A stretch of DNA of 64,000 nt from Trypanosoma brucei (lineage: Eukaryota): positions 960,001 to 1,024,000 of the forward strand of contig CP000071.1 in the NCBI GenBank assembly GCA_000002445.1, written 5' to 3'. Under the pieces are notes generated by a model, which was not told the DNA's origin, did not search any database, and saw only the letters and a list, made by a program, of their open reading frames with translations. Of the stretch, positions 26,088 through 60,924 are shown piece after piece. Both the position numbers and the translations under genes were made by a program. The number at the start of each line of letters is the position of its first letter. Position 1 is the stretch's first letter.

Positions 26088-26138
26088 TCCTTCCGTCTTA
26101 TTATTGTTATTGTTATTGTTTTTTTTTTGTTTTGTTTT
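26088..26138 (+). promoter_or_regulatory. Polypyrimidine tract / (TTATTG)n tract upstream of REV3.
   Basis: The sequence cttccgtcttattattgttattgttattgttttttttttgttttgttttgg lies about 100 nt upstream of ATG 26241. The track's TTG start falls inside this tract. Confidence 0.5.
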
Positions 26139-26240
26139 GGAAGGAAAAACGATAAAGAAAAGGATCAAAAGGGGGAGGGCAACAATAAGAGGGCACAGGG
26201 TGGGTTGATAGGACTTAATGTGCTAATACACACGGGGGCT

Positions 26241-29200: not shown

Positions 29201-32117
29201 GCCGTCAGAGGAGCACTTGCTGAGGCACGTCATGTGGGAAATTCGAGCTTATGATCCCGACGTTATCATATCCTGGGAGGTGGGCAGAAGTGGAATAGGG
29301 CTGCTGGCGCTGCGCTACAAGATCGCGCTTCGCCGCTCGCTCGCGCGTGACTTATCACGCTTGACGCCAGATAGCGCACTGTTTAACCAGAGAAGCGAGA
29401 ACATACATCTTAATCCCGAAGAGAAACCCTCTAATAGTAGTGACGAAAATATTAGTGAGGTCGAATGCGTATCCCCTTCCTCTGACTCATCACACTCTTC
29501 TTGCTCGGAGTCAACACTGTTCTCCACGGGCAGTGGGGCAACTGCTGCTACTACTAGGGGTTCTGTGGCACATGTTAGAGGTGGGTCGACCAATGCACAT
29601 CCTAATCTTGGCGATTTGACGAAGCAGCTCTCCCGTCGTTTTGGTGGAAGTCCACAGGTAGCCGGGAGAATCATTGTTGATCTTAGCAAGTATTTGCGCA
29701 AATATCTTCAGCTGCCGTCAACTACCCTACAGATGGTATATAAGAAACTGTTCAACAGCAGCTTGCCCTTCTTTACTGACGTCGCCCTCACGCGGATGTA
29801 TTGTGCGGGAGAAGCGGGTATGCAACGTGTTTTTATGTCGATTCTCCTTACACGTGTCGTCGCCCCGCACCGCATCGCCCAGCATCTGCACTTCTTCACC
29901 CGCACAGCGGAGTTCGCCCGCATGTTTGGAATTCTGTTTAGTGAAGTTTTAACCCGTGGGAGTCAATACCGCGTGGAAGCCACGTTACATCGCATGGCGA
30001 AGCCCATGGGTTTTGCGCTGCTTTCACCACCACTGGAAGTTGTACACCGTCAACCGCGGTTGCAGAGTATGCCACTGATAATGCAACCACGCAGTGGCTT
30101 CTACAAGGACGACCCCGTTGTTGTTTTGGACTTCCGCAGTCTGTATCCAAGTATTGTTATAGCTTACAACATCTGCTACACAACCTGTCTTGGTTCTGTG
30201 GGGAAAGGTGTGTATGGACGCTTGGGTGTGCTCAAGTCGTACAAACGAGACGACATGCTTCTTTCCTCACTTCTCAGTGGTCTTGCGGACACCAAGAACG
30301 ACCACAATGGCAAAAACGACGACAATGAAAACAGTAACACACTACACGGCGTGACATTTACGCCCAACGGATGTATGTTCTTAACTCCGGAGAATCGTGA
30401 GGGTGTGCTACCTCAGATGCTTCGTGTTTTACTTGACACCCGCGTGGATCTGCAGGCAGCTCTGAAGCATGTGGCTCACCCCTTCGGAGACATTTACATG
30501 CAACAGATCTTGCAGGAACAACAGATGGCTATTAAAATGCTTGCCAATACAACCTATGGTTACACCGCAGCTTCCTTTACTGGACGTATGCCGTGCGCCG
30601 ATGTGGCTGACGCTATTGTCATGCTAGGACGCCAGACGTTGGAGCGAGCCATGTGGTTAATCAATAGTCACCCCGTTTGGAAGGCAGAAGTTGTTTACGG
30701 CGACACGGATTCATTGTTTGTGCGTCTACCGGGGAGAACCAAGGAAGAGGCATTCGCAGTAGGAGAGGAGATGGCTAAAGAAGTGACAGCGGTTAACCCA
30801 GCTCCCGTGCGCCTGCAATTCGAGAAGGTGTTGTTTCCTTGCCTTCTCCTAGTGAAGAAACGTTACGTGGGGTATGCCTATTTCAAGCCCGAACAACAGG
30901 AGCCGCAATTTTTGGCAAAGGGAATTGAGACGGTTCGAAGGGACCAGTGCCCAGCCACTGCGCACCTTGCTGCAAAAATGATTCACCTTCTCTTCTCCGG
31001 GGCAGGCACTGAAACCTTGCGACAGTGTTTCTATGAAGAAGTAAGTAAATTGCAACGTGGAGACTGCAGTCCAGTTGACTGCATATTTCGGAAGGCTGTG
31101 AAATTTGGAAGGTATAAACCCAATGGGCGTTTACCAGCAGCAGCGCGTCTCGCGGCATTGCTTGTGGAGAAGGATGCCATGAGGACTCCTTACTGGGGGG
31201 AGCGCATACCATTCGTCGTAATTCGACGGCCGGAATCCACACGATTAAGCGATCGTGTTGTCCACCCCCAACAGCTGCTGAGTGATGAGGATCATCTTAT
31301 GCTTGACAGTGAGTACTATATCACACGACACATTGTTCCTACGCTCGACAGGATGTTTTATCTGGTTGGTGTGAGTTGTGGCCGCTGGTATGCGGAGATG
31401 CCTCGGGGTCGTACTTACCAAAACTACTTTGAACTGGGATTAAGTATTGCTGCGACAAAAGCCGCCAAGCGGGCGCGAGGAGTGGCGACGCCCCCTACTT
31501 TGTGCGCTGATGTCATTAACGTTAATATTTCCAATGCCAATCACGGTAATGAAAGGTTCAAGAGAAAAGGTAGGGGTAAAGGTAAAGGTGGCAGTGGGCT
31601 GCTTGGAAATCAGTCGGCGAGGGGTGCGAAAAATCGAACCCTTGATTCATATTACCAGCAGACTCTATGTGCTGTATGCCTCACAAACTCAACAGCCACC
31701 TCACCGACTGACCCTCCAGTTTGCAAGGGATGTCTTGAAAATTTATCAACCACCGCCCAACGCGTGACGTCACGACGTTACCGCGTGGAGCGCCACCTAC
31801 AACTTATGAAAATGGCCTGCTTGCGATGCATAGGGACTTGTGGTGAGGTGGGTGGGCCGGGTTTTCTATCCAGTCGGAAGAGGGATATGGAAGATATGAA
31901 TTTCTGCATCCCGCATAGCCTTGCTGCTGCACCTGACCGTGGCGTTCACGACGCTGGTGTTGTGGTGCGACGGTGGGGGAAACGTCAGCAGAAGCTTCAG
32001 GGGGAGGAAGATATTAGGTGTGTTTCCGTAGATTGTCACTTGTCGTTTGAGAAGAAGCGGCTCTCTTCGCTCTACCTGCAGCTGCTTGTACTTGAAGACT
32101 ACGTAACGACTCGCTGA
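26241..32117 (+). CDS. REV3: DNA polymerase zeta catalytic subunit (REV3-like B-family polymerase).
   Basis: The track start at 26127 is TTG. The first ATG at 26241 gives MNLYVVSIEYTLQ...ILHIFGYTTTEGN, a typical B-family N-terminus. Motif A DFRSLYPSIVIAYNICYTTCLG (about 30129-30190) is near-identical to REV3 motif A. Motif B is KMLANTTYGYTAAS. Motif C is YGDTDSLFV (about 30696-30722). A C-terminal CysA zinc finger (CAVCL...CKGC) and CysB cluster (CLRCIGTCG...C...C) are present. The large non-catalytic N-terminal/central insertion (about 1958 aa) is typical of pol zeta. Confidence 0.85.
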   Translation: MNLYVVSIEYTLQRPNAALGDAVMSPMFRRVSSRCPILHIFGYTTTEGNDRAAGEKSYVPREAAISESKLDSIQRYSVCAHIHGVYPYFFVQRSNSRISAMQFGTQLESVAMEALSSGHNKSAAAPRPHDRQQLIHHVDVVWLLPFYGYHGKKQPFFKVYVVDPAMVSRFLHLLYCTKHMGGRQWLVYEAHSPFHFQFMADYGAKGMGAFFIPSCTARSKLPDSVQPEQLNIAAVRPEGEPARLSCAQIEVDVSASSLRFRDGAVQPGENLLTARRNVRQYFADLGVDDAVLRGCTSGLLARRFTVSDQQRCDLGAVLLRKRFNESLKAKFTDPVVEEQEKVDSPVGVTQQLMEDMQGIVGEVLLPDSSPGCFSAPQHSLHNDQGEVGTSQDPLVPPGVTSEQGGCDERERPLPRCRSSDTPLPGNDYVEGMSPRGEDEPSVLFPSTLSSDGPGSSSNTNACGCSVESSKGGNEVALDARLRNDCGDSDRNWRESLSVGDTVAIASEESHDTTTAKSCLFAKIVCLGTSSVRLRWYVALSETHLADCQDELEKRGCWLGKGTKLGGCTPVAQGYQEELLLGDVEDINSISVLRQGPPIVVHHSYHSFIHDRNCGKIIGDGDCFISIALLCRYNYHVRERRLSAIEPRGDDNYVAMPALLLQSTPCASSDDESSLLAEVADEDEELFSSLSLSPPPDGCELCTFPHQRAPSRPSGSDHRVSGNNFKLPEGLRRSVSKTMQCAVQSQLSLLQSFSVCCSLSPRIREPVSPSVVAISSGVTRPSCALSSSSVECVDPQREALLVEFKREGSCVRCSNLIGDIPRNFIWRFDPIQRRVVISGATWPRVVALAPKLPPPTKCVSSLLKRPSVQLLTRIAHSQDLTPPEGAHTVAAKQEWCPHGSSSGSRSQRHSTRLICALRVMLVEVFLHRRDGVQHVAQERLLAVGLGRTTSIDERVKVRLFCVTGLSQKVPVGQPRVSPFSGAVEVVQLPSEEHLLRHVMWEIRAYDPDVIISWEVGRSGIGLLALRYKIALRRSLARDLSRLTPDSALFNQRSENIHLNPEEKPSNSSDENISEVECVSPSSDSSHSSCSESTLFSTGSGATAATTRGSVAHVRGGSTNAHPNLGDLTKQLSRRFGGSPQVAGRIIVDLSKYLRKYLQLPSTTLQMVYKKLFNSSLPFFTDVALTRMYCAGEAGMQRVFMSILLTRVVAPHRIAQHLHFFTRTAEFARMFGILFSEVLTRGSQYRVEATLHRMAKPMGFALLSPPLEVVHRQPRLQSMPLIMQPRSGFYKDDPVVVLDFRSLYPSIVIAYNICYTTCLGSVGKGVYGRLGVLKSYKRDDMLLSSLLSGLADTKNDHNGKNDDNENSNTLHGVTFTPNGCMFLTPENREGVLPQMLRVLLDTRVDLQAALKHVAHPFGDIYMQQILQEQQMAIKMLANTTYGYTAASFTGRMPCADVADAIVMLGRQTLERAMWLINSHPVWKAEVVYGDTDSLFVRLPGRTKEEAFAVGEEMAKEVTAVNPAPVRLQFEKVLFPCLLLVKKRYVGYAYFKPEQQEPQFLAKGIETVRRDQCPATAHLAAKMIHLLFSGAGTETLRQCFYEEVSKLQRGDCSPVDCIFRKAVKFGRYKPNGRLPAAARLAALLVEKDAMRTPYWGERIPFVVIRRPESTRLSDRVVHPQQLLSDEDHLMLDSEYYITRHIVPTLDRMFYLVGVSCGRWYAEMPRGRTYQNYFELGLSIAATKAAKRARGVATPPTLCADVINVNISNANHGNERFKRKGRGKGKGGSGLLGNQSARGAKNRTLDSYYQQTLCAVCLTNSTATSPTDPPVCKGCLENLSTTAQRVTSRRYRVERHLQLMKMACLRCIGTCGEVGGPGFLSSRKRDMEDMNFCIPHSLAAAPDRGVHDAGVVVRRWGKRQQKLQGEEDIRCVSVDCHLSFEKKRLSSLYLQLLVLEDYVTTR

Positions 32118-43837: not shown

Positions 43838-46800
43838 ATGCGCAAGACGGTGGTGCGCTTAAAGACATTCAATCCGCCTCAGCAATTGCAGGGAGGTAAT
43901 TCTTCTTCCGTACAACTGACGCGAACAAACGCCAACATCGTCACCGGTAATGACAACGATAAGAGTCGTGCATCTTCCCGAGCAGTGACATCGGTGCCGG
44001 AGAGAACATTGCAATCAGCAGCCGCTCCAGCATTGCAACGTGTGAAACGGGGCCGTGAGGAGTTGCCACAGAACAACTCAGCGAGTGGCCTTTCAGGAGT
44101 GGGTGCCGTAATAATGCCCTCGTCGCAATTTAGTGAGGTGGGGCCGTGGTCACAATTTATGCGGGAAGGGGCGGCGGATTTAACGGCGCATCCACATGCA
44201 GTTCCCACGTCTACAGAAGGAGACGCACCACCCCGTGATTTTTGCGATGGGGATGAAGATGATATGCCCCCCGTAAGCCAGGAGGAACTTCAGCGTGAAG
44301 CGGAGGAGGACATGAGACTTTCTACAGATGTTATATTAACCCCTGGAACACCCAATGGAAACACTTGTGAGCCGTTTTCAAGCGTCAGCGCGGTGCCCAC
44401 TTGCACTCTGACCGTCCCTAGTTTGAACTCAGAAGTTTCTCAAATATCAACCGGTCTTGACTATGGGAATGTGTACGGCCATGTTCCCTTTGGTACACCC
44501 GTCATTAACGATAATGTTCCGTCGGGAACGTCGGCGTCAGCTTTACCTCGTCCCTCGGTAGACGACCCCGATTTCTTCTACGATCTTCCCGTGTCTGTAA
44601 AGGATTTCTACGCGACGAGACGTGGTATCAAGAAGTTGTACAATTGGCAGCACGAAGTTCTAATGCGCGATGACATTCGTGCTGGTGGCAGTTTGGTGTA
44701 CAGCCTTCCAACCAGTGGTGGTAAAACTCTTGTGGCCGAAATTTCCTTGCTTCGTTGCCTTATCAATAGGGGACAATCGTGTTTATTTGTTCTTCCCTTT
44801 GTATCGCTGGCGGAGGAGAAGACAGACGCTATGATTCCTCTAGGTGATGTGTTGGGGTTTACCGTCGATGGTCACTATAGTACGCGCGGAAGGTTTCCCT
44901 TACCAGTATCCAAGGCTGTGTTTGTATGCACAATTGAAAAGGCAAACTCGTTGGTCAATCATATGCTAGAGGAAAATACAATTGGAAGAATTGGTACAAT
45001 TGTGGTGGATGAACTTCACATGCTTGGAGAAACTTCTCGAGGTGCAACGCTGGAGCTACTACTGACGAAATTGTTATGCTTGCGGCACAAAGTGCAAATT
45101 ATTGGCATGAGTGCTACGATACCGAATCTGCCAGATATTGCAAGGTGGTTACGGGCCAGTTGCTATATTGGAAATTACCGGCCTGTGCCACTTCGTCAGT
45201 ATGCTGTTGTGGGAGGGGAGGTGCTGGAGGATGGTCGCGAAGTTTGTCGTAGTCTCGTTGCAGCCGGTCACACTTCCGAGAGCAGCCAGTTGGTCTTTCT
45301 GACAACGGAGGTTAAGGGTGCGTCGGTGTTAGTATTCTGTGCGAGTCGACAGCAGACGGTGAGTACGGCACGTCTCATTGCGCGATCGCGAAAAGAAGAG
45401 GTTGACAAAGAGGGTGGTGTGCGGTATAACGCGTCCTCTTTGGCCCTTGTGGCGGATCTTCGTGCTCTCGACAGCGAAGAGAGTTCTCTTCTGAGCCAAC
45501 TTGTTCCTTACGGTGTTGCATTCCACCATGGGGGCTTGGTTGCTGAGGAACGCACGTTGATTGAGACTGCCTTTCGCCGTCGATCCATTGGCGTGTTGTG
45601 TTGCACTTCCACACTAGCCGCTGGTGTCAACCTTCCAGCGCGACGCGTAATCTTCAAGACACCGTTTGTCGCTGTCGACTTCTTAACGAAATCTCGCTAC
45701 CTGCAGATGTGTGGGCGTGCGGGTCGCGCAGGTCTAGATGAATTTGGGGAGTCGTTTTTGTTCCTTTCTCGAAAGGACCGAAACAGAGGCTGCGAGTTGA
45801 TGCAGCAGGAGGTGGAGGCTTGTGTTAGTCAGCTGTTGGAGGAAAAGAGTACGGTTGAAAGGGCCCTTCTGGAGTTTGTCGCGATTGGGCTCATTCGGAG
45901 CCTTTCCGACGCACGCAAGTGGGGGGAGAACATTTTGTTTCACCATGCACCTGGGCCTATTGACAAGGGATTGAACGCAGGATCGGTGGCGGTGCCAGAA
46001 ATGCTGGAGGGCATCATACAGTCTGCTTTGAGCAAACTTGTGGAAAGGGGTCTGATGCAGCGGTTGTCGCGGCCAGCAGCGGATGCATCTCGAGAAGACT
46101 CTGATGTACTCGGCGATAGCGATGTCACAAATGCCAAAAACGGCGATGCGAAAAACAATGGCACTGGTGACGGAGACGCTATTTTAAGCTCGTCTCCATT
46201 TGGCTCCTGCTCTGTGCGCTCATGTTTTGGGGTCGAAGATGCCTTGATTGTGCGTTTGGAGTTAGAGAAATTGCAGCAATCGGGACTGATTCTTGCTGAC
46301 GATTTGCACATGTGCTACTTTGTTACCCCTCTTCGTGATCCTATCGACGTTGACTGGTCTATCTACAGGGACATTCTTTCGCAACTTAACGAGACCCGCC
46401 AGCGAATTGCGAGCATGATAGGTGTCGACGAATTTTACGTGAATCAACGTGCCATGGGGCTTGGTGATGCAGGCGGTAATGGTGGTGGGAGGGCTTTCGC
46501 AACTCGCCGTTTTTACGCCGCCCTTGCGCTTGCGGATCTTCTGAATGAGGTTCCTATCGGTGAGGTTGAGCAGCGCTACCGATGTAATCGCGGACAGCTT
46601 CAGAACCTACTACGTAGCGCCTCCATGTTCAGCAGCTCCATCACAAGTTTTTGCCGTGCTATGGAGTGGTATTCATTAGAGGCCGTTTTGGCATCATTTG
46701 TGAAGCGTCTGGGATTTGGTGTGAAACCGGACATCATACCATTAATGGAAATTAAAGGCGTACAGCCGGGGCGGGCACGTGCTCTTTGGCGGGCTGGGTT

Positions 46801-47011
46801 TAAAGATCCCGCTGCCGTTGCCGCCTGCACCCCAGCGGAATTACTCAAGCGCGTGAAGGAAGCGAACCCGCCAGACAGTAAAGTGGTGAAATATTTTTCC
46901 ATACGATCTGCCGTTGTGGTGCTGCGCGAGGCAAATGCGTGGGTTCAGCAGAACATCCGTGAAAAGAAGGGAGATTTGGCTGATTTAACCCTCCAATCTT
47001 CAACCTACTGA
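43838..47011 (+). CDS. Ski2-like superfamily-2 DNA helicase of the POLQ-helicase / HEL308 (HELQ) type.
   Basis: ATG at 43838. Motif I YSLPTSGGKTLVAE (about 44708) resembles the POLQ/HELQ consensus YSAPTSAGKT. Motif II VVDELHML (about 45002-45022). Motif III MSAT. Motif V TSTLAAGVNLPA. Motif VI QMCGRAGRAG. The C-terminal region is compatible with winged-helix/HhH domains. The 1057-aa length with no polymerase domain fits a helicase-only POLQ paralogue/HELQ. Confidence 0.75.
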   Translation: MRKTVVRLKTFNPPQQLQGGNSSSVQLTRTNANIVTGNDNDKSRASSRAVTSVPERTLQSAAAPALQRVKRGREELPQNNSASGLSGVGAVIMPSSQFSEVGPWSQFMREGAADLTAHPHAVPTSTEGDAPPRDFCDGDEDDMPPVSQEELQREAEEDMRLSTDVILTPGTPNGNTCEPFSSVSAVPTCTLTVPSLNSEVSQISTGLDYGNVYGHVPFGTPVINDNVPSGTSASALPRPSVDDPDFFYDLPVSVKDFYATRRGIKKLYNWQHEVLMRDDIRAGGSLVYSLPTSGGKTLVAEISLLRCLINRGQSCLFVLPFVSLAEEKTDAMIPLGDVLGFTVDGHYSTRGRFPLPVSKAVFVCTIEKANSLVNHMLEENTIGRIGTIVVDELHMLGETSRGATLELLLTKLLCLRHKVQIIGMSATIPNLPDIARWLRASCYIGNYRPVPLRQYAVVGGEVLEDGREVCRSLVAAGHTSESSQLVFLTTEVKGASVLVFCASRQQTVSTARLIARSRKEEVDKEGGVRYNASSLALVADLRALDSEESSLLSQLVPYGVAFHHGGLVAEERTLIETAFRRRSIGVLCCTSTLAAGVNLPARRVIFKTPFVAVDFLTKSRYLQMCGRAGRAGLDEFGESFLFLSRKDRNRGCELMQQEVEACVSQLLEEKSTVERALLEFVAIGLIRSLSDARKWGENILFHHAPGPIDKGLNAGSVAVPEMLEGIIQSALSKLVERGLMQRLSRPAADASREDSDVLGDSDVTNAKNGDAKNNGTGDGDAILSSSPFGSCSVRSCFGVEDALIVRLELEKLQQSGLILADDLHMCYFVTPLRDPIDVDWSIYRDILSQLNETRQRIASMIGVDEFYVNQRAMGLGDAGGNGGGRAFATRRFYAALALADLLNEVPIGEVEQRYRCNRGQLQNLLRSASMFSSSITSFCRAMEWYSLEAVLASFVKRLGFGVKPDIIPLMEIKGVQPGRARALWRAGFKDPAAVAACTPAELLKRVKEANPPDSKVVKYFSIRSAVVVLREANAWVQQNIREKKGDLADLTLQSSTY

Positions 47012-52209: not shown

Positions 52210-52992
52210 ATGGTGAAAATGCCGTCGACCCTATCTGATTTGTTTCCGTTAGCCAAGTGCTCGGTTGCAAGTGCTGTGGAACTCACGCTGCTCATTGGCG
52301 CAGTCGCTGCCTCCACGTATTTAGCTGTGGCGAATTCAGTCTGGAGAGTTTACTGCGGATTAACTTTGGTGTTGTTTGCTGTGTATTGCCTGCGGTTGTG
52401 GCGCTTACTTCCCGGTGAGAAAGAATATTTGGAAATGGAAGCACACAAACTGGCGGATCATATGATGGTGAAGCAGCGCGAGGCGACCGCTACGCAGCAA
52501 ACACTCGTAGGGCAGAGAGGACACGCAACAAATCCCGCACAAACCCCAGCACTTCAACACTCTCACTTTCAAGGTGTAAATCCCATATTAGGGTCTCATC
52601 AATTGCAGCAATTGGCGAGCTCTTTAGCACTTTCGCAGTCTCAGCAGTTCATGAGTTCTATGATGCTTCCGCACCATCAGCAACTTATGAGCTCTGTTGC
52701 TTTACCACCGCTTCAAATTTCCAACTCATTACCCATACCTTTACCATTGCAACAGCTTGCAAACTCCATGGCACTTTCCCAAATGCACCAACCACAGTTT
52801 CATGCGGGGAATCATATGGTAGCACCTCAACAACATCAACGGGAATTAATAACACCACGCATTACGGTTGCGTCTCCACTACCAACACCATCGGTGCTGA
52901 GACAATTCCCGCCGACGGCATTGCGTGAAAACGATGGAGAAGAGCCGCCGCAGAAGTGCCAGATGCCGTATGGTGATGGGCACCTCGGTTAA
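52210..52992 (+). CDS. Hypothetical protein with two N-terminal transmembrane helices and a Gln/Leu/Ser-rich low-complexity C-terminus.
   Basis: ATG at 52210. Two hydrophobic segments in the first 60 aa. Degenerate repeats QQLASSLALSQSQQF / QQLANSMALSQMHQ. No known domain. Confidence 0.45.
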   Translation: MVKMPSTLSDLFPLAKCSVASAVELTLLIGAVAASTYLAVANSVWRVYCGLTLVLFAVYCLRLWRLLPGEKEYLEMEAHKLADHMMVKQREATATQQTLVGQRGHATNPAQTPALQHSHFQGVNPILGSHQLQQLASSLALSQSQQFMSSMMLPHHQQLMSSVALPPLQISNSLPIPLPLQQLANSMALSQMHQPQFHAGNHMVAPQQHQRELITPRITVASPLPTPSVLRQFPPTALRENDGEEPPQKCQMPYGDGHLG

Positions 52993-53960: not shown

Positions 53961-53992
53961 TATAAGTAGTGCAACCACTGCGCACTACCAAC

Positions 53993-54886
53993 ATGCAACA
54001 GAACATTCACTCTTTCACACCCACCAACGGGAAGGATCGCTGTAAGTTATGTCTCTCCTATTGCGGGCCCATTTATCTTGTTGTTGTTATTCTCTCTTTC
54101 CTTGGCGCCTATGCGGCATTCTTCATTGGGTTATGCTTGCGATATCCCACTTCATGGAAGTTGGCTGTTTGCATCTCATGTCTGTTCACCGGCGCTGTGT
54201 TGGCTGGCATTTTGATTTTTACCCTGCTTCGGGCGGTCTTCACGCCAGCTGGTTATGTCCCACAGTCGCCGTGGCAATATCCACCACGTTATATCGGTGA
54301 GTGTCCGGGGTTCGTTCCCCCGTCTGGTGAGGGTGTAGGTGAAAATCCCAATACGGTGCGGCAGTTGGATCGTCATAATCAACTGCGCTACTGCACTGCC
54401 TGCAAGCAATTCAAACCAGATAGGGCATACCACTGCGAATCGTGTGAGCGGTGCACATTTGACTTTGACCACCACTGCCCTGTACTCAACAATTGTATTG
54501 GACGTGGCAATTACAAGATGTTCGTTCTGTTTCTTTGCTACGTTCCCATAGTCGGTTGTGTTTTGGGTGGCCTGATGTTTGTGGGTTTCTTTGTAGTGGA
54601 TGAAGCGGAGCCGGCAGTTGCGTGGATGGTGTTCGCGATGATTATGATGATCTTCTGCGCCGTTATTGGTATATTTGGCTGTGTGCATTTGTGTTGGCTC
54701 TGTCGCGGAGAGTCCACCATGGGGCGCCACGTGAGTAGTTTTAACAAACAGCGGGGCCGAAGCAAAGAAGAGCGTGCACGAGAGCGGGAGGAACATTGCA
54801 ATGCCGTGTGTGGAGTGAGGCGAGTGTGGTGGCGTCTTGTCATGCCAGTCTTGCCCCTGCGGGAAGAGGCGGCTTCACTTGTTTGA
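53993..54886 (+). CDS. DHHC-type palmitoyl acyltransferase.
   Basis: The track start at 53969 is GTG; the first ATG is at 53993. Four transmembrane segments. The DHHC cysteine-rich domain CTACKQFKPDRAYHCESCERCTFDFDHHCPVLNNCIG has the DHHC tetrapeptide at about 54468-54479. Confidence 0.85.
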   Translation: MQQNIHSFTPTNGKDRCKLCLSYCGPIYLVVVILSFLGAYAAFFIGLCLRYPTSWKLAVCISCLFTGAVLAGILIFTLLRAVFTPAGYVPQSPWQYPPRYIGECPGFVPPSGEGVGENPNTVRQLDRHNQLRYCTACKQFKPDRAYHCESCERCTFDFDHHCPVLNNCIGRGNYKMFVLFLCYVPIVGCVLGGLMFVGFFVVDEAEPAVAWMVFAMIMMIFCAVIGIFGCVHLCWLCRGESTMGRHVSSFNKQRGRSKEERAREREEHCNAVCGVRRVWWRLVMPVLPLREEAASLV

Positions 54887-56367: not shown

Positions 56368-59300
56368 ATGAAACAGAAGGAAACCGCCAGCGACATTAAC
56401 GGTGCCAGAAGCTTACAGGGAAGCGCAGGAACAGTTGCATCCCCCAGACCTCCCACCGTGTACAAAACGTATGGCGGTAGTTCCCATTTGCCACTAATAG
56501 GAAGGTTGCAACGGGCTGTGCGCCGTCCAGGTTCCCGCTCTAGATTAACGCTAACTACTTCGGGTAGTTCTGAAGAGCTAACGAACTTAAAACAGCTTTT
56601 GCAGACTCAAAAGGACCGGCTGTCACGACGCTGTCAAATGATAGACGACAGTTTGGAGGATTGCAGTGCTAACAGGGAAAATGGAACGGCAGGAATAGTG
56701 GAAGGGGGGGAGGAGGGAGGTAAAGAGGGAGTCACCTGCCCAGCGATCAGACGGCTAGCAGAACGGATGCTCGGCCACGTTAACCCCGAAACTAATGACT
56801 TGGAGGAGTATGAAGATGAAGAAGAAGAGGAGGACAGCGAAGTGCGTGCATTGGAAGACGATCTGTGCAGACGCGAGGCGAGGTTAAATATCATAAAAGA
56901 CAAGATGAAGCGCTTATGGGTGGAGAAGCAAATATCGCCGGCAGCTGCCGTTCCGCCTCCAGAGCCCACTGTGCTTGCTGCCACTACCGATCAGGAGGTG
57001 ATCGATGTGGCGGAAATGATGTACAAATTCGCCAGTGGGACCAGTAGGGACAATGAGAATGGTAAGGAAAAGATGGAGGGCTCCTCCAGCATTATTGTGG
57101 GTGACCAACAAGTATTTGACGATGGGATATCAGATGCCACAGCAATCTCCATTACAGATTCCCCTGCGACTGTTCGTCCTTCAGGCGCCATCAAAAGTGA
57201 GGAACGGGCATGCCTCGTACCTTTGCGTTCAAGCAGTCTCGGTCGACTGACAAGTGGTGCGAGGGTTTTTATGGATTTGCTTCCAAACATGCGGGATATT
57301 ATAGTGCTCTCTCCTGGTGAGGTCGGTGTAGCCCGCAGGGGAGATATACTTTCAGAAAACCACATTCTCAAGGTCGATTCCCAGGAGGCGCTGCGCTCAC
57401 GCAAGGGGGCAATGGGTATCATCTCCGGTGCACCGTACTTCCGCATGGTCCCCAAACTTAATGTGGCAGGAGTAGGGCAACCGCGCGCCAGTGCCGTTCG
57501 AACGATCGTGAACGAGTTGCGGCGTGTAATGGATGGATTGGTGGTATGGGTAAACCTTCGTGAGGAGCCACTCGTTTACATCAACAATGAGGCTCATATT
57601 GTGCGGCAACGGAGTGACCCCACAACCCCTATTATTATTCCACATGTCACAGGAAAAAGTATTGCCCTGATAGATGATAAACTGAAAAAAGAGGTAATCA
57701 GGGAGGCAAGCGAAAACAGTGGAAACGTCAGCGTGCACATGGAAGGAAAAGATGGCCACATGGAGGACCAATGGGAGAGCGTTGAAAAGGATCAGGTCTT
57801 CACCTTAGAGGAAGTATTCCGCCCACTGAGAACGAACATCGTATACCACCGGCTGCCCATAACACAAAATGTTGGGCCACAGCCAGGAGACTTCGATTTC
57901 GTCTTCGACTTGTGTTCAGATGACCCGAGAAAAATGATCATATTCAACTGTCAGACGGGACGTGGGAAGACCAGTGCCATGATGACCATTGCCAGTATCG
58001 TACGTTTTTACCAGCTGTTTGCTCACGATGCGGTGCTAGACGCTAGTTTGCTTCGCACTGAAGGTCGCTGTTTCAGTTTCCGAACCATCAAAACGATCGT
58101 ATCACTTATTCCAAATGGCAAACTCCATGAGCGACGGCTCCTCGTTCTTCTTGATCTTTCGGACAAGGTTTACTCCATCGCTGATCATATCAACAACGCC
58201 TTCACTTCCGGTACCACACCCGCCGAAGAGGCTATTATGCATCTTAAGCAGTACGCCTACTTCCTTGTGTTTTCATATTACTGCGAGCAACGCATATGGA
58301 GTTTCAGTACCAAACAACCGTTCAGTCAGTGGTTGCTTGGTAATAATGAGATCAAACTGCTCCTGGAAAGGATAGAAACAATGGAGGAGGAATTCAAAGA
58401 GGAACGTATCGCCGCACCGGTAAGCGAGGCTGGTGACTTTGACACGGATCCAGTACGGAAGCGGCGAGGTACTGTGCTCAGCGCCAACCGCATCTTATGC
58501 AGTTTTCCTTTTTTTGCCAGTGGAAAAGAGGAAACGATCGGATCGCTCCGTCAACTGGCACCTGGTGTACCTATATTTACATGTGGTCGCTTGACGGAGG
58601 AGGGACGGCAGTGCGTAGTGAAGGATATGCGCCATTACTTTCCAGGAAAGATTATGTGGCTTAGTCTTCGTGCGGAGCCGATGGTGTTCATCAATGAAAT
58701 GGGTTATACGCTGGTGGATTACGACGTGACCACATATGGGAAGGGTGGTGAAGGGATAACCATGCACACATCGCTTCACGCCATTGAGCAGATGGAAGAA
58801 CGCCTTCGCCGCGATGTCCTTTTGGAGGCCCAGGAACATAAGGGTTACATTTTGTTGCATAATTTTGATGAAACAGGAAAGCGAAAGGCGATGCAAATCA
58901 AAGCGTGCTCTGTTCGGACCCCCAGATCGATCATGACCGACTTCGCCGCTACGTACGATGTGAGTTATTTTCGCATTCCCATCCCACTTTCTGGTGAAAT
59001 GTTACCAAGTGACGTTGATCCGCTTCTGGAGCACTTGAGTAAGAACACGAAGGACACCACAGTTTTTATAATCAACGATACGCAGGGTTCGGTGCGTACA
59101 ACTGTAGCCCTTAACATACTGACGATGTATCGTGTCTCCCGCACTTGTAACCTCCGCTCGATGAGCAACCCAGCAAGGATTGCTGCGGCCCTGCGCACAG
59201 GTAACAGTGATGTTGTGCTACCGCAGGTGGACATAATTGCTTACCAGGGTAGAGTCACTGATAGTGCAACCAGGAATTATAAAGAATTGCAGGTGGCATC

Positions 59301-60924
59301 AACCATCTGTCAAATGCTGAGGGCCGGGTCTCTACTTTGTGTAACAGATGCACTCATTGATGTTGGTGGATGCGGCAAACGGTGGAACATCGTTCACACG
59401 ATTCACCACTACGCGAACGCTATTACTGCTGGTACCATTGAGAGGACAAAAGGCATTCGTGAGGCTGTAGCAATGGTGCGCGTGTATCTATTTGTACTTC
59501 TCAGTACAATATACATTGATGCACAAGGGGATTATGACGCCAGAGAACCATTCAATTTATGGCTGGAGCGGCGTGTTGAGGTAGCAAATATCCTTAGTGG
59601 TCTGGAGCAACGTGCAGAAAAGGCCTTCAAGTACATCACGCCAAGTAGTGTGGGAATACCAAGTGTCGTACATCGCCGCGGTGACGTGCTTACTGCGAAC
59701 TACGCTTTGAAGGCGGACCACTTTCCGGGATGCCAAAAGAAAGGAATCCGCCCGGAGGTGTGCGGTGCGCCTAACTTCCGCAAAGTGAGGGATGTCAATG
59801 TGTACGGTGTTGCAATTCCTACAATCTTGGGTATTCGCAACATCCTCTCCCTTCTTGGTGCCAGTTTTGAGTCCCTTGAAACATATGAAGGAGAACAAAA
59901 TGATATGGATCTTCATTTGGGATTTGCCGCGCCCCGGCTATTTGATCCGCGCTTCCAAACAGAAACTTTATCCAAGCCTCTTCGAGGACATGTTGTTTGG
60001 GTCAATCTCCGTGAGGAACCGATTCTGTACGTTGGTGATAAGCCATTCGTCCTCCGCAATCTCGAAACGCCGTACGTAAATGTGGAGCTTACGGGTATTG
60101 CCGCTGATGAGGTGGAGCGTGTTGAGCGACAATTACGGCAGGATGTGCTGAAGGAAGCGGAAGAAAACGAGGGATTGTTCCTTATCCACGATGAAGAAAC
60201 ACCAGGTGAACTAGTTGGCGTATGCAAGCCGGTCACAACAGAAATGGTCAAAACGTTACGGGATGTTTATGACGATTTTGTCTCGAACGGTTGCCGTGTT
60301 ACGTTGTTACGCCTGCCAGTGACTGACGAACAAAGTCCTACGGAAGGGAACTTTGATGCCCTCGTCGAGGCGCTTCTGCCGCACATTACGGCACACATGG
60401 ACCGTCGCGAGACGTTGTCATTTGTGTTTAACTGCCAGATGGGGCGGGGCCGAACCACAACCGGAATGGTGGTTTGTTGTTTACTCATTGGTTTGGTAAT
60501 GCCCGAGTACTACAAGGAGTTAGACAGCATTTATGACCCTCTTTACAAGGAGGAAGATTCCAAACTGGCATGTGGTGAGTACAGATGTATCAGCGACCTG
60601 AAGCGGACACTCACAGGCGGTCGCGAGGCAAAACACCGTGTTGATTTAGTAATTGAAGCGTGTTCAACGATGCAGAACCTTCGTACTGCCATTGAATTCT
60701 TTGCTCTTCAGGTGCAGTCACCTGATGTAACGGAGGAGCAGCGCGGTCGGGCTCACCACCACGGTGTGCATTACCTGCGACGCTATTTCAATCTTATTGC
60801 CTTCGCTGCATATTTAGAGGAGGAGTACGACGCTATGAAAAAGCGAGTGCGGTGCTCCTTTTCTCGCTGGCTGGCTCAGCGCCGTGACGTCACCACACTG
60901 TGTGACTCTGCCGCATTAAAATAA
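56368..60924 (+). CDS. Paladin-like protein with three tandem PTP-like phytase-type repeats: two intact CX5R catalytic loops and one degenerate.
   Basis: ATG at 56368. The N-terminal roughly 290 aa contain an acidic stretch (EEYEDEEEEEDSE) and a coiled-coil. Three repeats share blocks such as VVWVNLREEPLVYINNEAHIVRQ / IMWLSLRAEPMVFINEMGYTLVD / VVWVNLREEPILYVGDKPFVLRN. Catalytic loops: FNCQTGRGKTSA (about 57945-57978), FNCQMGRGRTTT (about 60430-60463), and a Cys-less middle repeat IINDTQGSVRTT (about 59071-59100). Confidence 0.7.
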   Translation: MKQKETASDINGARSLQGSAGTVASPRPPTVYKTYGGSSHLPLIGRLQRAVRRPGSRSRLTLTTSGSSEELTNLKQLLQTQKDRLSRRCQMIDDSLEDCSANRENGTAGIVEGGEEGGKEGVTCPAIRRLAERMLGHVNPETNDLEEYEDEEEEEDSEVRALEDDLCRREARLNIIKDKMKRLWVEKQISPAAAVPPPEPTVLAATTDQEVIDVAEMMYKFASGTSRDNENGKEKMEGSSSIIVGDQQVFDDGISDATAISITDSPATVRPSGAIKSEERACLVPLRSSSLGRLTSGARVFMDLLPNMRDIIVLSPGEVGVARRGDILSENHILKVDSQEALRSRKGAMGIISGAPYFRMVPKLNVAGVGQPRASAVRTIVNELRRVMDGLVVWVNLREEPLVYINNEAHIVRQRSDPTTPIIIPHVTGKSIALIDDKLKKEVIREASENSGNVSVHMEGKDGHMEDQWESVEKDQVFTLEEVFRPLRTNIVYHRLPITQNVGPQPGDFDFVFDLCSDDPRKMIIFNCQTGRGKTSAMMTIASIVRFYQLFAHDAVLDASLLRTEGRCFSFRTIKTIVSLIPNGKLHERRLLVLLDLSDKVYSIADHINNAFTSGTTPAEEAIMHLKQYAYFLVFSYYCEQRIWSFSTKQPFSQWLLGNNEIKLLLERIETMEEEFKEERIAAPVSEAGDFDTDPVRKRRGTVLSANRILCSFPFFASGKEETIGSLRQLAPGVPIFTCGRLTEEGRQCVVKDMRHYFPGKIMWLSLRAEPMVFINEMGYTLVDYDVTTYGKGGEGITMHTSLHAIEQMEERLRRDVLLEAQEHKGYILLHNFDETGKRKAMQIKACSVRTPRSIMTDFAATYDVSYFRIPIPLSGEMLPSDVDPLLEHLSKNTKDTTVFIINDTQGSVRTTVALNILTMYRVSRTCNLRSMSNPARIAAALRTGNSDVVLPQVDIIAYQGRVTDSATRNYKELQVASTICQMLRAGSLLCVTDALIDVGGCGKRWNIVHTIHHYANAITAGTIERTKGIREAVAMVRVYLFVLLSTIYIDAQGDYDAREPFNLWLERRVEVANILSGLEQRAEKAFKYITPSSVGIPSVVHRRGDVLTANYALKADHFPGCQKKGIRPEVCGAPNFRKVRDVNVYGVAIPTILGIRNILSLLGASFESLETYEGEQNDMDLHLGFAAPRLFDPRFQTETLSKPLRGHVVWVNLREEPILYVGDKPFVLRNLETPYVNVELTGIAADEVERVERQLRQDVLKEAEENEGLFLIHDEETPGELVGVCKPVTTEMVKTLRDVYDDFVSNGCRVTLLRLPVTDEQSPTEGNFDALVEALLPHITAHMDRRETLSFVFNCQMGRGRTTTGMVVCCLLIGLVMPEYYKELDSIYDPLYKEEDSKLACGEYRCISDLKRTLTGGREAKHRVDLVIEACSTMQNLRTAIEFFALQVQSPDVTEEQRGRAHHHGVHYLRRYFNLIAFAAYLEEEYDAMKKRVRCSFSRWLAQRRDVTTLCDSAALK

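What the first reader, a model, noticed from the sequence alone, without database searches (positions are those of the whole stretch)
56368..60924. Giant paladin-like protein with three PTP-like-phytase repeats, the middle one catalytically dead
Three internally homologous modules are visible in the sequence.

- Each module begins with a VVWVNLREEP / IMWLSLRAEP / VVWVNLREEP block.
- Each ends in a P-loop-like segment: FNCQTGRGKTS, IINDTQGSVRTT (no Cys), FNCQMGRGRTT.
- Two intact CX5R loops flank one degenerate loop. This is the paladin/PTP-like-phytase architecture, which in metazoan paladin has only two modules and whose catalytic status is debated.
- The protein also carries a roughly 290-aa N-terminal acidic/coiled-coil region.

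The substrate (phosphoinositide or inositol polyphosphate) and the role of the dead middle module are open questions. I think this is the most under-characterised, biochemically tractable gene in the window.
Basis: partly seen in the sequence, partly recalled or inferred. Interest (0 to 1): 0.6.

Follow-up and report, generated by a model that had tools for sequence, protein, structure and literature searches.

The report
Trypanosome paladin with one intact phosphatase module
This Trypanosoma brucei gene encodes an uncharacterised member of the known paladin family with three inositol-phosphatase-like modules, but only the last module keeps all catalytic residues, so it is an ordinary family member with a lineage-specific pattern of dead modules.

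Summary
The ORF at 56368-60924 (+) is real. It encodes 1518 aa and is 100% identical to a T. brucei TREU927 'hypothetical protein, conserved' (XP_847172.1, UniProt Q57YX2). Three internally homologous modules each pass Pfam PTPlike_phytase (151, 95.6 and 158 bits; cut-off 27). Whole-protein homology to named plant paladins has E about 1e-165.

The claim of two intact CX5R loops flanking a dead one is wrong for module 1. Its loop is C528-QTGRG-K534, with Lys in place of the invariant Arg, and the general-acid position holds Gln500. Module 2 has Asp904 in place of the Cys and Leu874 at the acid position. Only module 3 keeps Asp1320, Cys1356 and Arg1362, essentially unchanged in 30 kinetoplastid sequences.

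Three-module paladins are already described in plants (rice PALD), and fungi show the kinetoplastid pattern. Most likely there is one live C-terminal phosphatase acting on an inositol-based substrate, plus two pseudo-phosphatase modules. No kinetoplastid study was found. Interest is modest.

The parts
56368..60924 (+). Complete ORF, 1518 aa plus stop: the T. brucei paladin-family protein (XP_847172.1 / Q57YX2)
   Evidence: ORF listing; 100% identity over 100% of the length to the T. brucei TREU927 protein
56368..57333 (+). N-terminal region, aa 1-322: acidic, poorly conserved, probably disordered, with no Pfam domain
   Evidence: aa 1-290 has pI 4.92 and net charge -12. Mean identity to 29 kinetoplastid homologues is 0.19. 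Only a sub-threshold DUF1664 hit. Starts MKQKE, so there is no Gly2 for N-myristoylation.
56572..56643 (+). Conserved N-terminal island A, aa 69-92 (EL..L+.LL..Q..RL), a short heptad-like amphipathic segment
   Evidence: conserved across Trypanosoma, Leishmaniinae and a deep-branching kinetoplastid-like sequence (P0030)
56803..56841 (+). Acidic run EEYEDEEEEEDSE, aa 146-158
56836..56919 (+). Conserved N-terminal island B, aa 157-184 (EVR.LE..L.R...RL......M..LW), heptad-like
   Evidence: alignment
57334..58377 (+). Module 1 repeat unit, aa 323-670
   Evidence: homology to modules 2 and 3 runs from RRGD to FSQWL...; mean kinetoplastid identity 0.61
57550..58005 (+). Module 1 Pfam PTPlike_phytase core, aa 395-546
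   Evidence: 151 bits, E=3.7e-44, profile positions 1-158 of 158
57865..57867 (+). Gln500 at the general-acid position of module 1; the Asp is missing
   Evidence: Q, Y, R or L in all 30 kinetoplastid sequences, never Asp; aligns with the D of the 3F41 'LQDH' / 'ATDH' motifs.
57949..57969 (+). Module 1 P-loop C528-QTGRG-K534: Cys kept, invariant Arg replaced by Lys (codon AAG)
   Evidence: Lys in 10 of 30 kinetoplastid sequences, namely all named Trypanosoma except T. vivax plus two unnamed sequences; Arg in the other 20
58462..59607 (+). Module 2 repeat unit, aa 699-1080; the most divergent module
   Evidence: mean kinetoplastid identity 0.48; keeps 28 of the 70 positions conserved in intact-type modules
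58663..59130 (+). Module 2 Pfam PTPlike_phytase core, aa 766-921
   Evidence: 95.6 bits, E=4.1e-27
58987..58989 (+). Leu874 at the general-acid position of module 2
   Evidence: L, Y, F or A in kinetoplastids, never Asp
59077..59097 (+). Module 2 P-loop D904-TQGSV-R910: Asp replaces the nucleophilic Cys, while Arg910 is retained (Gly907 is also present in this gene)
   Evidence: Asp at the Cys position and Arg at the Arg position in all 30 kinetoplastid sequences; the same 'ND' is found in three fungal homologues
59674..60921 (+). Module 3 repeat unit, aa 1103-1518: PTPLP fold plus about 150 aa of C-terminal helices; the only module with a complete active site
59716..59742 (+). DHFPGCQKK motif, aa 1117-1125, near the start of module 3. 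It is conserved in the intact-type modules examined and lost in modules 1 and 2.
   Evidence: K1115, D1117 and P1120 are at least 90% conserved in 35 intact-type modules; this 30-aa bin is 0.85 conserved in kinetoplastids. A role in the active site is inferred, not shown.
60001..60486 (+). Module 3 Pfam PTPlike_phytase core, aa 1212-1373
   Evidence: 158.1 bits, E=2.5e-46
60325..60327 (+). Asp1320, the predicted general acid of module 3 (PVTDEQSP)
   Evidence: Invariant in 30 of 30 kinetoplastid sequences. Aligns with the general-acid D of solved PTPLPs. In the model it lies in the loop after strand 222-226.
60433..60453 (+). Module 3 P-loop C1356-QMGRG-R1362, a true CX5R followed by TT
   Evidence: FNCQMGRGRTT in 29 of 30 kinetoplastid sequences, with one M-to-L change; the loop lies between strand 260-266 and helix 272-288 of the model.

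Best explanation
The gene encodes the T. brucei orthologue of the eukaryotic paladin family.

Anatomy (shown):
- An acidic, fast-evolving and probably disordered N-terminal region of about 320 aa carries a few short conserved helical motifs.
- Three tandem units of about 350-415 aa follow. Each matches the PTP-like inositol phosphatase (PTPLP) profile. For module 3, a confident model shows the PTPLP fold plus a C-terminal helical extension.
- Only module 3 has the complete cysteine-phosphatase machinery: general acid Asp1320, nucleophile Cys1356 and P-loop Arg1362, in CQMGRGRTT.
- Module 1 keeps Cys528 but has Gln500 for the general acid and Lys534 for the P-loop Arg.
- Module 2 has Asp904 for the Cys and Leu874 for the acid, and keeps Arg910.

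Mechanism (inferred):
- Module 3 hydrolyses a phosphomonoester through a cysteinyl-phosphate intermediate.
- The substrate is a highly anionic inositol-based molecule, either a phosphoinositide head group or a soluble inositol polyphosphate.
- Modules 1 and 2 are pseudo-phosphatase modules. They no longer turn over substrate by the classical mechanism, but they stay under purifying selection.
- They most likely act as phospho-ligand binding, targeting or regulatory domains for module 3. The inactive D2 domains of receptor PTPs and the dead myotubularins that partner active ones work this way.
For: Family and fold:
- PF14566 matches three times, at 151, 95.6 and 158 bits.
- Plant proteins named paladin match at E about 1e-165 over 79% of the protein.
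- A profile of intact-type modules hits solved PTPLPs, aligning the 'tD' acid and the CxxGxGRTT loop.
- The module 3 model has pLDDT 91.6, with the P-loop between a strand and a helix.
- Foldseek's top 34 hits are all PTPLPs, at E 2e-8 to 5e-6, against 0.14 for the next class.

One live module:
- The residue table over 43 three-module homologues shows PVTDEQSP invariant and FNCQMGRGRTT in 29 of 30 kinetoplastid sequences for module 3.
- Module 1 never has the Asp, and has Lys for Arg in 10 of 30.
- Module 2 always has Asp for Cys.
- Of 70 positions at least 90% conserved in 35 intact-type modules, module 1 keeps 40 and module 2 keeps 28.
- Conservation ranks M3 (0.68) > M1 (0.61) > M2 (0.48).
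- In the PTPLP Bd1204, C206S and D177N each abolish activity (PMC3981807).

Substrate class:
- The nearest solved folds are all myo-inositol phosphatases.
- A basic residue inside the P-loop (CQMGRGR) is the trait noted for PTEN-type lipid phosphatases and for InsP6 contacts in Bd1204.
- Mouse paladin dephosphorylated PI(4,5)P2 but not phosphopeptides (PMC7857541).

Modules 1 and 2 still functional:
- Each forms a 100%-bootstrap clade across kinetoplastids.
- Each keeps 48-61% identity across kinetoplastids.
Against: - No enzymatic or binding data exist for any kinetoplastid member. None was found in ten literature searches.
- Only module 3 was modelled. The folds and pockets of modules 1 and 2 are inferred from sequence homology.
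- Cys528 of module 1 is kept in all 30 kinetoplastid sequences, and most non-Trypanosoma lineages keep a true CX5R there. This is hard to explain if the site has no chemistry at all.
- A PTP-fold enzyme without a canonical general acid can be active: Siw14 acts on phosphoanhydrides (PMC13573052).
- Rice PALD showed no pNPP activity in vitro.
- The mammalian PI(4,5)P2 result used immunoprecipitated protein, so the substrate class of the family is not firmly settled.
- That Arg-to-Lys cripples a PTP P-loop rests on my knowledge of classical PTP enzymology. An R258K mutant of PhyAsr exists in the PDB (2B4O), but I could not retrieve its kinetics.
Confidence: 0.7

Rival explanations
1. One reading: modules 1 and 3 are both catalytically active and flank one dead module, giving two active sites per polypeptide as proposed for metazoan and plant paladins.
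For: - Cys528 is conserved in 30 of 30 kinetoplastid sequences.
- 20 of 30 keep a true CX5R in module 1.
- Module 1 is well conserved (0.61).
- Siw14 shows that a PTP fold can work without a canonical general acid on phosphoanhydride substrates.
Against: - In this gene the P-loop Arg is Lys534.
- The general-acid Asp is absent in every kinetoplastid, and the residue there varies (Q, Y, R, L), as expected for an unconstrained position.
- D-to-N at this position abolishes activity in a PTPLP.
- In Siw14 the P-loop Arg is essential.
- Only 40 of 70 family-conserved positions are kept. K1115 and D1117 of the DHFPGCQ region are retained, but P1120 and the HFPGCQ stretch are not.
Confidence: 0.15
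2. The whole protein is a non-catalytic scaffold or 'anti-phosphatase'. It binds phosphorylated ligands or proteins and shields or recruits them, as once proposed for vertebrate paladin.
For: - Vertebrate paladin was repeatedly reported to lack protein phosphatase activity and was called a pseudophosphatase (summarised in PMC7857541, and PMC8299082).
- Rice PALD showed no pNPP activity.
- Two of the three modules here are clearly degenerate.
Against: - The catalytic Asp, Cys and Arg of module 3 are invariant in all 30 kinetoplastid sequences. The flanking motifs match those of intact modules in the plant and fungal homologues tabulated, and D, C and R are invariant across the 35-row alignment that includes two bacterial proteins.
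- Rice PALD needs the PTP-A Cys in vivo.
- Mouse paladin has Cys-dependent PI(4,5)P2 activity.
Confidence: 0.1
3. It is a protein tyrosine or dual-specificity phosphatase acting on phosphoproteins rather than on inositol-based substrates.
For: - It has the CX5R Cys-phosphatase chemistry.
- There are weak sub-threshold Pfam matches to DSP-PTPase families: PF22784 at 25.4 bits and PF22785 at 26.2 bits, against a cut-off of 27.
- Rice PALD binds the XA21 receptor kinase.
Against: - Bacterial PTPLPs such as Bd1204 strongly prefer InsP6 over pTyr.
- Mouse paladin had no activity on a phosphotyrosine or phospho-Ser/Thr peptide.
Confidence: 0.05

Closest known systems
Plant PALADIN (rice PALD, LOC_Os03g38970; Arabidopsis orthologue), PMC8299082
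   Same: - It has three tandem PF14566 modules of about 400 aa each, one of them lacking the nucleophile.
- Whole-protein homology is strong: E about 1e-165, 24-25% identity over 79% of the T. brucei protein.
- The intact modules carry the same PxTDE and FNCQMGRGRTT motifs.
   Different: - In plants modules A and B are intact and C is dead, with Ser at the Cys position (DCR|DCR|xSG). In T. brucei only the last module is intact (QCK|LDR|DCR).
- The dead module uses Ser in plants and Asp in kinetoplastids.
- Plants have no N-terminal extension of about 320 aa.
- The known function of the plant protein, XA21 immunity, has no counterpart in a trypanosome.
Metazoan paladin (PALD1 / KIAA1274), PMC7857541
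   Same: - It belongs to the same family, and UniRef names two kinetoplastid orthologues 'Paladin'.
- It has tandem PTP-like modules with CxxGxGR loops.
- It was proposed, and partly shown, to be a phosphoinositide rather than a protein phosphatase.
   Different: - It has two modules, both with CX5R (human aa 312-318 and 661-667), against three modules with one intact here.
- From my own knowledge and the reference cited, the mammalian protein is N-myristoylated. The T. brucei protein starts MKQKE and cannot be.
- I did not align a metazoan sequence directly.
Fungal three-module homologues (Blastocladiella P0041, Sporobolomyces P0042, unnamed P0043)
   Same: - They show the same degeneration pattern. 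Module 1 lacks the general acid, module 2 has 'ND' (Asp for Cys) with Arg kept, and module 3 is fully intact: xCR|ADR|DCR.
- Module 2 of T. brucei scores best against module 2 in two of the three fungi.
   Different: - Identity is low (25-28%), and coverage of the T. brucei protein is 41-57%.
- Deep module orthology is not resolved, with bootstrap values below 60. The shared pattern could be ancestral or convergent.
- These proteins are themselves uncharacterised.
Bacterial PTP-like inositol phosphatases (PhyAsr 1U24/3MMJ/4WTY, LppA 4TVV, Bd1204 4NX8, D. magneticus 7K67)
   Same: [quoted passage not shown]
   Different: - They are single-domain enzymes of about 260-340 aa. I understand most to be secreted or periplasmic, from my own knowledge.
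- They lack the C-terminal helical extension of about 150 aa and the tandem arrangement.
- Their P-loop starts with HC, not NC.
Mitsuokella multacida tandem-repeat PTPLP (PhyAmm, 3F41/4WU3)
   Same: - It has two PTPLP repeats in one chain.
- From my own knowledge, its repeats differ in activity, which is a precedent for functional division between tandem PTPLP modules.
   Different: It is bacterial, both repeats keep the Cys, Arg and Asp (alignment), and it has no paladin-type extensions.
Tandem or partnered active/inactive Cys-phosphatases (receptor PTP D1-D2; active and dead myotubularins)
   Same: The logic is the same: an intact catalytic domain is coupled to degenerate paralogous domains that regulate it or bind ligand. 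This is analogy only, from established knowledge.

Membership tests
Pfam PF14566 PTPlike_phytase / PTPLP superfamily | Profile HMM match above the curated gathering score | tested here: met
   The whole protein scores 392 bits. Modules 1, 2 and 3 score 151, 95.6 and 158.1 bits on their own, against a cut-off of 27.
Pfam PF14566 PTPlike_phytase / PTPLP superfamily | PTPLP three-dimensional fold (PTP core plus phytase-specific subdomain) | tested here: met
   [not shown]
Pfam PF14566 PTPlike_phytase / PTPLP superfamily | CX5R(S/T) P-loop between a beta strand and an alpha helix, in every module | tested here: not met
   Module 3 meets it: C1356-R1362 lies between strand 260-266 and helix 272-288 of the model. 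Module 1 is CX5K (C528...K534). Module 2 is DX5R (D904...R910).
Pfam PF14566 PTPlike_phytase / PTPLP superfamily | General-acid Asp in the loop preceding the P-loop, in every module | tested here: not met
   Module 3 has D1320, invariant in 30 of 30 kinetoplastid sequences. Module 1 has Q500 and module 2 has L874.
Pfam PF14566 PTPlike_phytase / PTPLP superfamily | Hydrolysis of myo-inositol polyphosphates | not testable with these tools
   This needs purified protein and InsP, PIP or PP-InsP substrates.
Paladin family (PALD1 / plant PALD) | Full-length homology to proteins named paladin, with tandem extended modules of about 400 aa | tested here: met
   nine plant proteins (most named paladin by NCBI or UniRef) match at E 2e-165 to 5e-134 over 76-79% of the query, and UniRef names two kinetoplastid orthologues 'Paladin'; every one of the 43 homologues has three modules.
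Paladin family (PALD1 / plant PALD) | Two modules with an intact CxxGxGR motif, as in human PALD1 and in rice PTP-A and PTP-B | tested here: not met
   Only module 3 has it in T. brucei. Leishmaniinae keep CX5R in module 1 but lack its general acid.
Paladin family (PALD1 / plant PALD) | Cys-dependent PI(4,5)P2 phosphatase activity (mouse paladin) | not testable with these tools
   The claim comes from PMC7857541.
Paladin family (PALD1 / plant PALD) | N-terminal Gly2 for myristoylation and membrane association (mammalian paladin; my own knowledge, reference listed) | tested here: not met
   The protein starts MKQKETAS. The orthologues I read start MPRRE (T. congolense), MLSPH (T. vivax), MPPAV (T. 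cruzi) and MDIAA (L. donovani), among others. This is a feature of the metazoan subfamily, not of the family as a whole.

The most novel reading that the evidence does not exclude
The three modules are three chemically different phosphate-recognition sites in one polypeptide, acting as an intramolecular reader-eraser for inositol phosphate or phosphoinositide signals.
- Module 3 is a classical phosphomonoesterase.
- Module 1 has a conserved Cys but no general acid, and Arg in most kinetoplastids. It could be a general-acid-independent site for good leaving groups such as the beta-phosphate of inositol pyrophosphates, as in Siw14. In the Trypanosoma lineage, where it became CX5K, it could be a thiol or ligand sensor.
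- Module 2 has Asp for Cys with Arg kept, invariant in kinetoplastids and shared with fungi. It could be a non-hydrolysing phospho-ligand binding pocket.

A corollary is that the xCR|xDR|DCR layout shared by kinetoplastids and fungi would be the ancestral eukaryotic paladin architecture, with the plant and animal forms derived from it.
Probability: 0.12. Interest if true: 0.6.

Novelty: new member of a known kind. Interest (0 to 1): 0.35.

Why it matters
Whether paladins are real enzymes, and what their substrate is, remains unsettled. Reports include no protein phosphatase activity, PI(4,5)P2 activity of immunoprecipitated mouse protein, and in-vivo dependence on one Cys in rice with no pNPP activity.

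The kinetoplastid protein is a natural simplification. It has one fully intact site and two differently crippled ones, in an organism with efficient reverse genetics. That makes it a clean test bed for three questions:
- whether an intact paladin module is a phosphatase, and on what substrate;
- what the degenerate modules do;
- whether a conserved Asp-for-Cys P-loop binds ligand.

The practical correction for anyone following up is that module 3 (C1356) should be the target of mutagenesis, not modules 1 and 3 together. Beyond that the gene is an ordinary, database-annotated, uncharacterised orthologue. It was absent from the main text of the 2007 TriTryp phosphatome analysis.

Tried and rejected
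- Self-BLAST of the whole protein returned only the identity hit. I replaced it with pairwise module comparisons.
No three-module model, and therefore no inter-module geometry, could be obtained.
- A window-only three-row alignment gave an unusable model of module 3 (pLDDT 40.8). I discarded it and ran no fold search on it.
- The AlphaFold-database Foldseek library was unavailable, so I could not compare with predicted paladin structures.
- Model coordinates are not exposed to scripts. I could not measure distances between the DHFPGCQKK motif and the active site, nor compute pocket electrostatics.
- DNA-level repeat search within the ORF found only chance matches of 16-20 nt. There is no recent duplication or gene conversion, and the identical VVWVNLREEP blocks are maintained at the protein level.
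- Literature searches on paladin with Trypanosoma or kinetoplastid, on the accession numbers, and on PF14566 with Leishmania or Trypanosoma found only author-name matches or the host gene.
- The PhyAsr mutant kinetics paper (Puhl et al. 2007) is not held.
- The neighbour-joining module tree did not resolve deep orthology between kinetoplastid, fungal and plant modules. Bootstrap values were below 60, and long-branch attraction of degenerate modules is likely. I make no claim about the ancestral architecture.
- I considered and rejected a transmembrane or secreted protein. The most hydrophobic 19-aa window scores only 1.76 and lies inside module 2's helical region.

Full report
**1. What is in the sequence.**

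A single ATG-to-stop ORF occupies 56368..60924 on the + strand and encodes 1518 aa. It is 100% identical over its full length to a protein annotated 'hypothetical protein, conserved' in Trypanosoma brucei brucei TREU927 (XP_847172.1, AAZ13106.1, UniProt Q57YX2), on a 2.48-Mb contig. Identical-length versions occur in T. b. gambiense and T. equiperdum.

The window looks like a trypanosomatid polycistronic unit. All 15 ORFs of at least 250 aa lie on the + strand.

**2. The three modules are real.**

- The whole protein matches Pfam PF14566 (PTPlike_phytase) at E=2.5e-118 in three stretches.
- Scanned separately, the three segments score 151, 95.6 and 158.1 bits against a cut-off of 27. The N-terminal 290 aa match nothing significant.
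- Pairwise BLASTP between the modules gives E=1e-34 (M1-M3), 2e-15 (M2-M3) and 5e-16 (M1-M2), at 22-26% identity.
- There is no DNA-level repeat. The triplication is therefore old, and the identical VVWVNLREEP blocks are kept by selection on the protein.
It starts at RRGDxLSxN, about 70-105 aa before the 'VVWVNLREEP' block. It runs about 135-155 aa beyond the P-loop, to F(S/N)xWL.
- The units are aa 323-670, 699-1080 and 1103-1518.

**3. The catalytic residues, and the main correction.**

A CX5R search finds module 3 (C1356...R1362) but not module 1. The module 1 loop is C528-Q-T-G-R-G-K534, with codon AAG for the Lys.

I located the modules in 43 homologues with an HMM, aligned them, and read off the general-acid and P-loop columns.

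| Module | General-acid position | P-loop | Across 30 kinetoplastid sequences |
|---|---|---|---|
| M3 | D1320 (PVTDEQSP) | C1356...R1362 (FNCQMGRGRTT) | Acid motif invariant; P-loop has one conservative M-to-L change |
| M1 | Q500 | C528...K534 | Cys always kept; Asp never present (Q, Y, R or L); Arg is Lys in 10 of 30 |
| M2 | L874 | D904...R910 | Asp for Cys in all 30; Arg kept; no acid Asp |

The ten sequences with Lys in module 1 are every named Trypanosoma except T. vivax, plus two unnamed sequences.

The identification of the acid position rests on two points. The alignment is ungapped and anchored by R-[LI]-P-[IV]. The profile alignment to solved PTP-like phytases places it on their 'tD' general acid.

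So in this gene only module 3 has the complete Asp, Cys and Arg set. 'Two intact CX5R loops flank one degenerate loop' is not what the sequence shows.

Independent measures agree:
- Of 70 positions at least 90% conserved among 35 intact-type modules (including two annotated as bacterial), module 1 keeps 40 and module 2 keeps 28.
- Mean identity of 29 kinetoplastid homologues to the T. brucei residue is 0.68 for M3, 0.61 for M1, 0.48 for M2 and 0.19 for the N-terminal region.

**4. Structure.**

A window-only alignment gave a useless model (pLDDT 40.8).

An alignment of module 3 with 34 mostly single-module homologues from the second search (A6) was accepted. It gave a confident model of aa 1090-1518, with mean pLDDT 91.6 and pTM 0.92.
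- C1356 (model residue 267) lies directly after strand 260-266. Helix 272-288 follows. This is the PTP P-loop topology, and it is the same strand-loop-helix position described for the PTPLP Bd1204 (P-loop between beta10 and alpha6).
- D1320 (model residue 231) lies in the loop after strand 222-226.

Fold searches:
- Foldseek against the PDB returns 34 hits at E of 5e-6 or better. All are bacterial PTP-like myo-inositol phosphatases. The next class (SHP-1, PTPN22, PTEN) starts at E=0.14.
- About 165 residues of the module, mostly the C-terminal helices, have no counterpart in those structures.
- No paladin structure appeared in either the sequence or the fold searches of the PDB copy.

**5. Relatives and what is already known.**

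All 43 full-length homologues from the first search have three modules. They comprise 30 kinetoplastid or kinetoplastid-like sequences, nine plant proteins (most named 'paladin'), a haptophyte and three fungi.

The catalytic signatures differ by lineage:

| Lineage | Signature (acid, nucleophile, P-loop Arg, per module) |
|---|---|
| Plants and Pavlova | DCR \| DCR \| dead (Ser at the Cys position in plants) |
| Fungi | xCR \| ADR \| DCR; one of the three has SDR in module 1 |
| Kinetoplastids | xC(R/K) \| xDR \| DCR |
| Oomycetes (two modules) | RCR \| DCR |

Bacteria have single modules that cover the whole unit of about 420 aa (P0156, P0158).

In a neighbour-joining tree with 200 bootstraps, kinetoplastid M1, M2 and M3 each form a 100% clade. 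The triplication therefore predates the kinetoplastid radiation. Deep nodes are unresolved.

From the literature:
- Rice PALD is described as having three PTP-like domains matching pfam14566. PTP-A and PTP-B are intact, and PTP-C has Ser for Cys. The PTP-A Cys is required in vivo, and no pNPP activity was detected (PMC8299082).
- Mouse and human paladin have two such domains. Immunoprecipitated protein showed Cys-dependent activity on PI(4,5)P2, but none on inositol phosphates or phosphopeptides (PMC7857541).
- The 2007 TriTryp phosphatome paper does not mention this family in its main text.
- No paper on a kinetoplastid paladin was found.

**6. Most likely mechanism.**

Shown: the domain composition, the module 3 fold and its intact catalytic residues, and the degeneracy and conservation patterns of modules 1 and 2.

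Inferred:
- (a) Module 3 is a working cysteine phosphatase using Cys1356, Asp1320 and Arg1362.
- (b) Its substrate is an inositol-based polyanion. The nearest folds are all inositol phosphatases. The P-loop carries an internal Arg (CQMGRGR), a trait linked to PTEN-type lipid phosphatases and to InsP6 contacts in Bd1204. Mouse paladin acts on PI(4,5)P2.
- (c) Modules 1 and 2 do not perform classical turnover. D-to-N and C-to-S substitutions abolish activity in a PTPLP. From general PTP enzymology (my own knowledge), Arg-to-Lys in the P-loop lowers kcat by orders of magnitude.
- (d) Both modules are nevertheless under purifying selection and keep parts of the P-loop. Module 1 keeps Cys, the Gly residues and a basic residue. 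Module 2 keeps Arg910, plus Gly907 in this gene (Gly at that position in 28 of 30 kinetoplastid sequences). They probably bind phospho-ligands, or they target or regulate module 3.

The analogies are receptor-PTP D2 domains, dead myotubularins and the tandem PTPLP PhyAmm.

**7. Rivals.**

- Module 1 might still be catalytic. Its Cys is invariant, most non-Trypanosoma lineages keep CX5R, and Siw14 works without a canonical general acid on phosphoanhydrides. However, Siw14 needs its P-loop Arg, and T. brucei has Lys there.
- The whole protein might be a scaffold. The invariance of the module 3 catalytic set argues against that.
- A protein-tyrosine-phosphatase role is disfavoured by the fold-search gap and by the data on mouse paladin and Bd1204.

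**8. The N-terminal region.**

Residues 1-290 are acidic (pI 4.92, net charge -12) and contain an EEYEDEEEEEDSE run. The region evolves fast. It contains three short islands conserved across kinetoplastids: aa 69-85, 158-184 and 196-215.

The first two have a 3-4 residue hydrophobic spacing over about 2-4 heptads. 'Acidic' is confirmed. 'Coiled-coil' is at best two short amphipathic helices, and no coiled-coil predictor was run.

The protein starts MKQKE, so the N-myristoylation reported for mammalian paladin cannot apply.

**9. Verdict.**

The architecture is one live module and two degenerate ones, not two live and one dead.

Three-module paladins are already published for plants, and the kinetoplastid pattern is shared with fungi. 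The gene is an uncharacterised new member of a known kind, with a lineage-specific degeneration pattern.

Interest is modest. It offers a tidy experimental system for the unresolved question of paladin catalysis, but nothing in it is surprising to a phosphatase specialist.

Noticed in passing
window 7385-21409 (+): A 4674-aa ORF with the full set of dynein heavy chain Pfam domains, including the axonemal-type DYH2-5-8 coiled coil. It is probably an axonemal (flagellar) dynein heavy chain.
   Followed up: partly
window 26127-32117 (+): A 1996-aa ORF with a family-B DNA polymerase domain (283 bits) and a POL3_N domain. It is unusually long for a replicative B-family catalytic subunit and may be zeta-like.
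   Followed up: no
window 43838-47011 (+): A 1057-aa ORF with DEAD, Helicase_C, HTH_61 and POLQ_helical domains. It is a POLQ-like (HELQ-type) helicase with no polymerase domain detected in this ORF.
   Followed up: no
window 53969-54886 (+): A DHHC palmitoyltransferase ORF (96.7 bits) lies immediately upstream of the paladin-like gene in the same transcription direction. No functional link is implied, because trypanosomatid polycistrons are not operons.
   Followed up: no
window 52210-52992 (+): A 260-aa ATG-initiated ORF with no Pfam match at E<=1e-5. It lies in a low-GC stretch (0.41-0.43). Whether it is a real gene is unknown.
   Followed up: no
window 1-64000: All 15 ORFs of at least 250 aa are on the + strand. 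GC falls to 0.38-0.44 at about 40-44 kb, 48-54 kb and 60-64 kb, against about 0.50 elsewhere.
   Followed up: no
window 57967-57969 (K534) and homologues P0001-P0030: The module 1 P-loop Arg/Lys state is patchy. Lys occurs in T. brucei, congolense, grayi, conorhini, cruzi, melophagium, theileri and rangeli. Arg occurs in T. vivax and in all named Leishmaniinae and Strigomonas. This implies either a reversal in T. vivax or repeated R-to-K changes, each a single-nucleotide step.
   Followed up: partly
window 59716-59742 (aa 1117-1125) and alignments A4, A6: The DHFPGCQ(K/N)K motif near the start of the module is conserved in intact-type modules: kinetoplastid M3 and plant M1 and M2, with more diverged forms in fungal M3 and the bacterial singles. 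It is lost in T. brucei M1 and M2. It therefore tracks with an intact active site and may line it. I could not check this in 3D because model coordinates are not exposed.
   Followed up: partly
proteins P0156, P0158: Single-module proteins of about 490 aa, annotated as bacterial (one from Candidatus Eremiobacteraeota), cover 97-100% of the eukaryotic paladin module, including the C-terminal helical extension, at 32-33% identity. The whole 'paladin unit', not just the PTPLP core, may therefore predate eukaryotic tandem duplication or have been transferred.
   Followed up: no
protein P0073 (EukProt/MMETSP transcriptome, organism name beginning 'Platy...'): This 761-aa fragment groups inside the kinetoplastid M2 and M3 clades with 100% bootstrap and is 57% identical to T. 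brucei module 3. It is possibly a kinetoplastid contaminant or endosymbiont sequence in that transcriptome.
   Followed up: no
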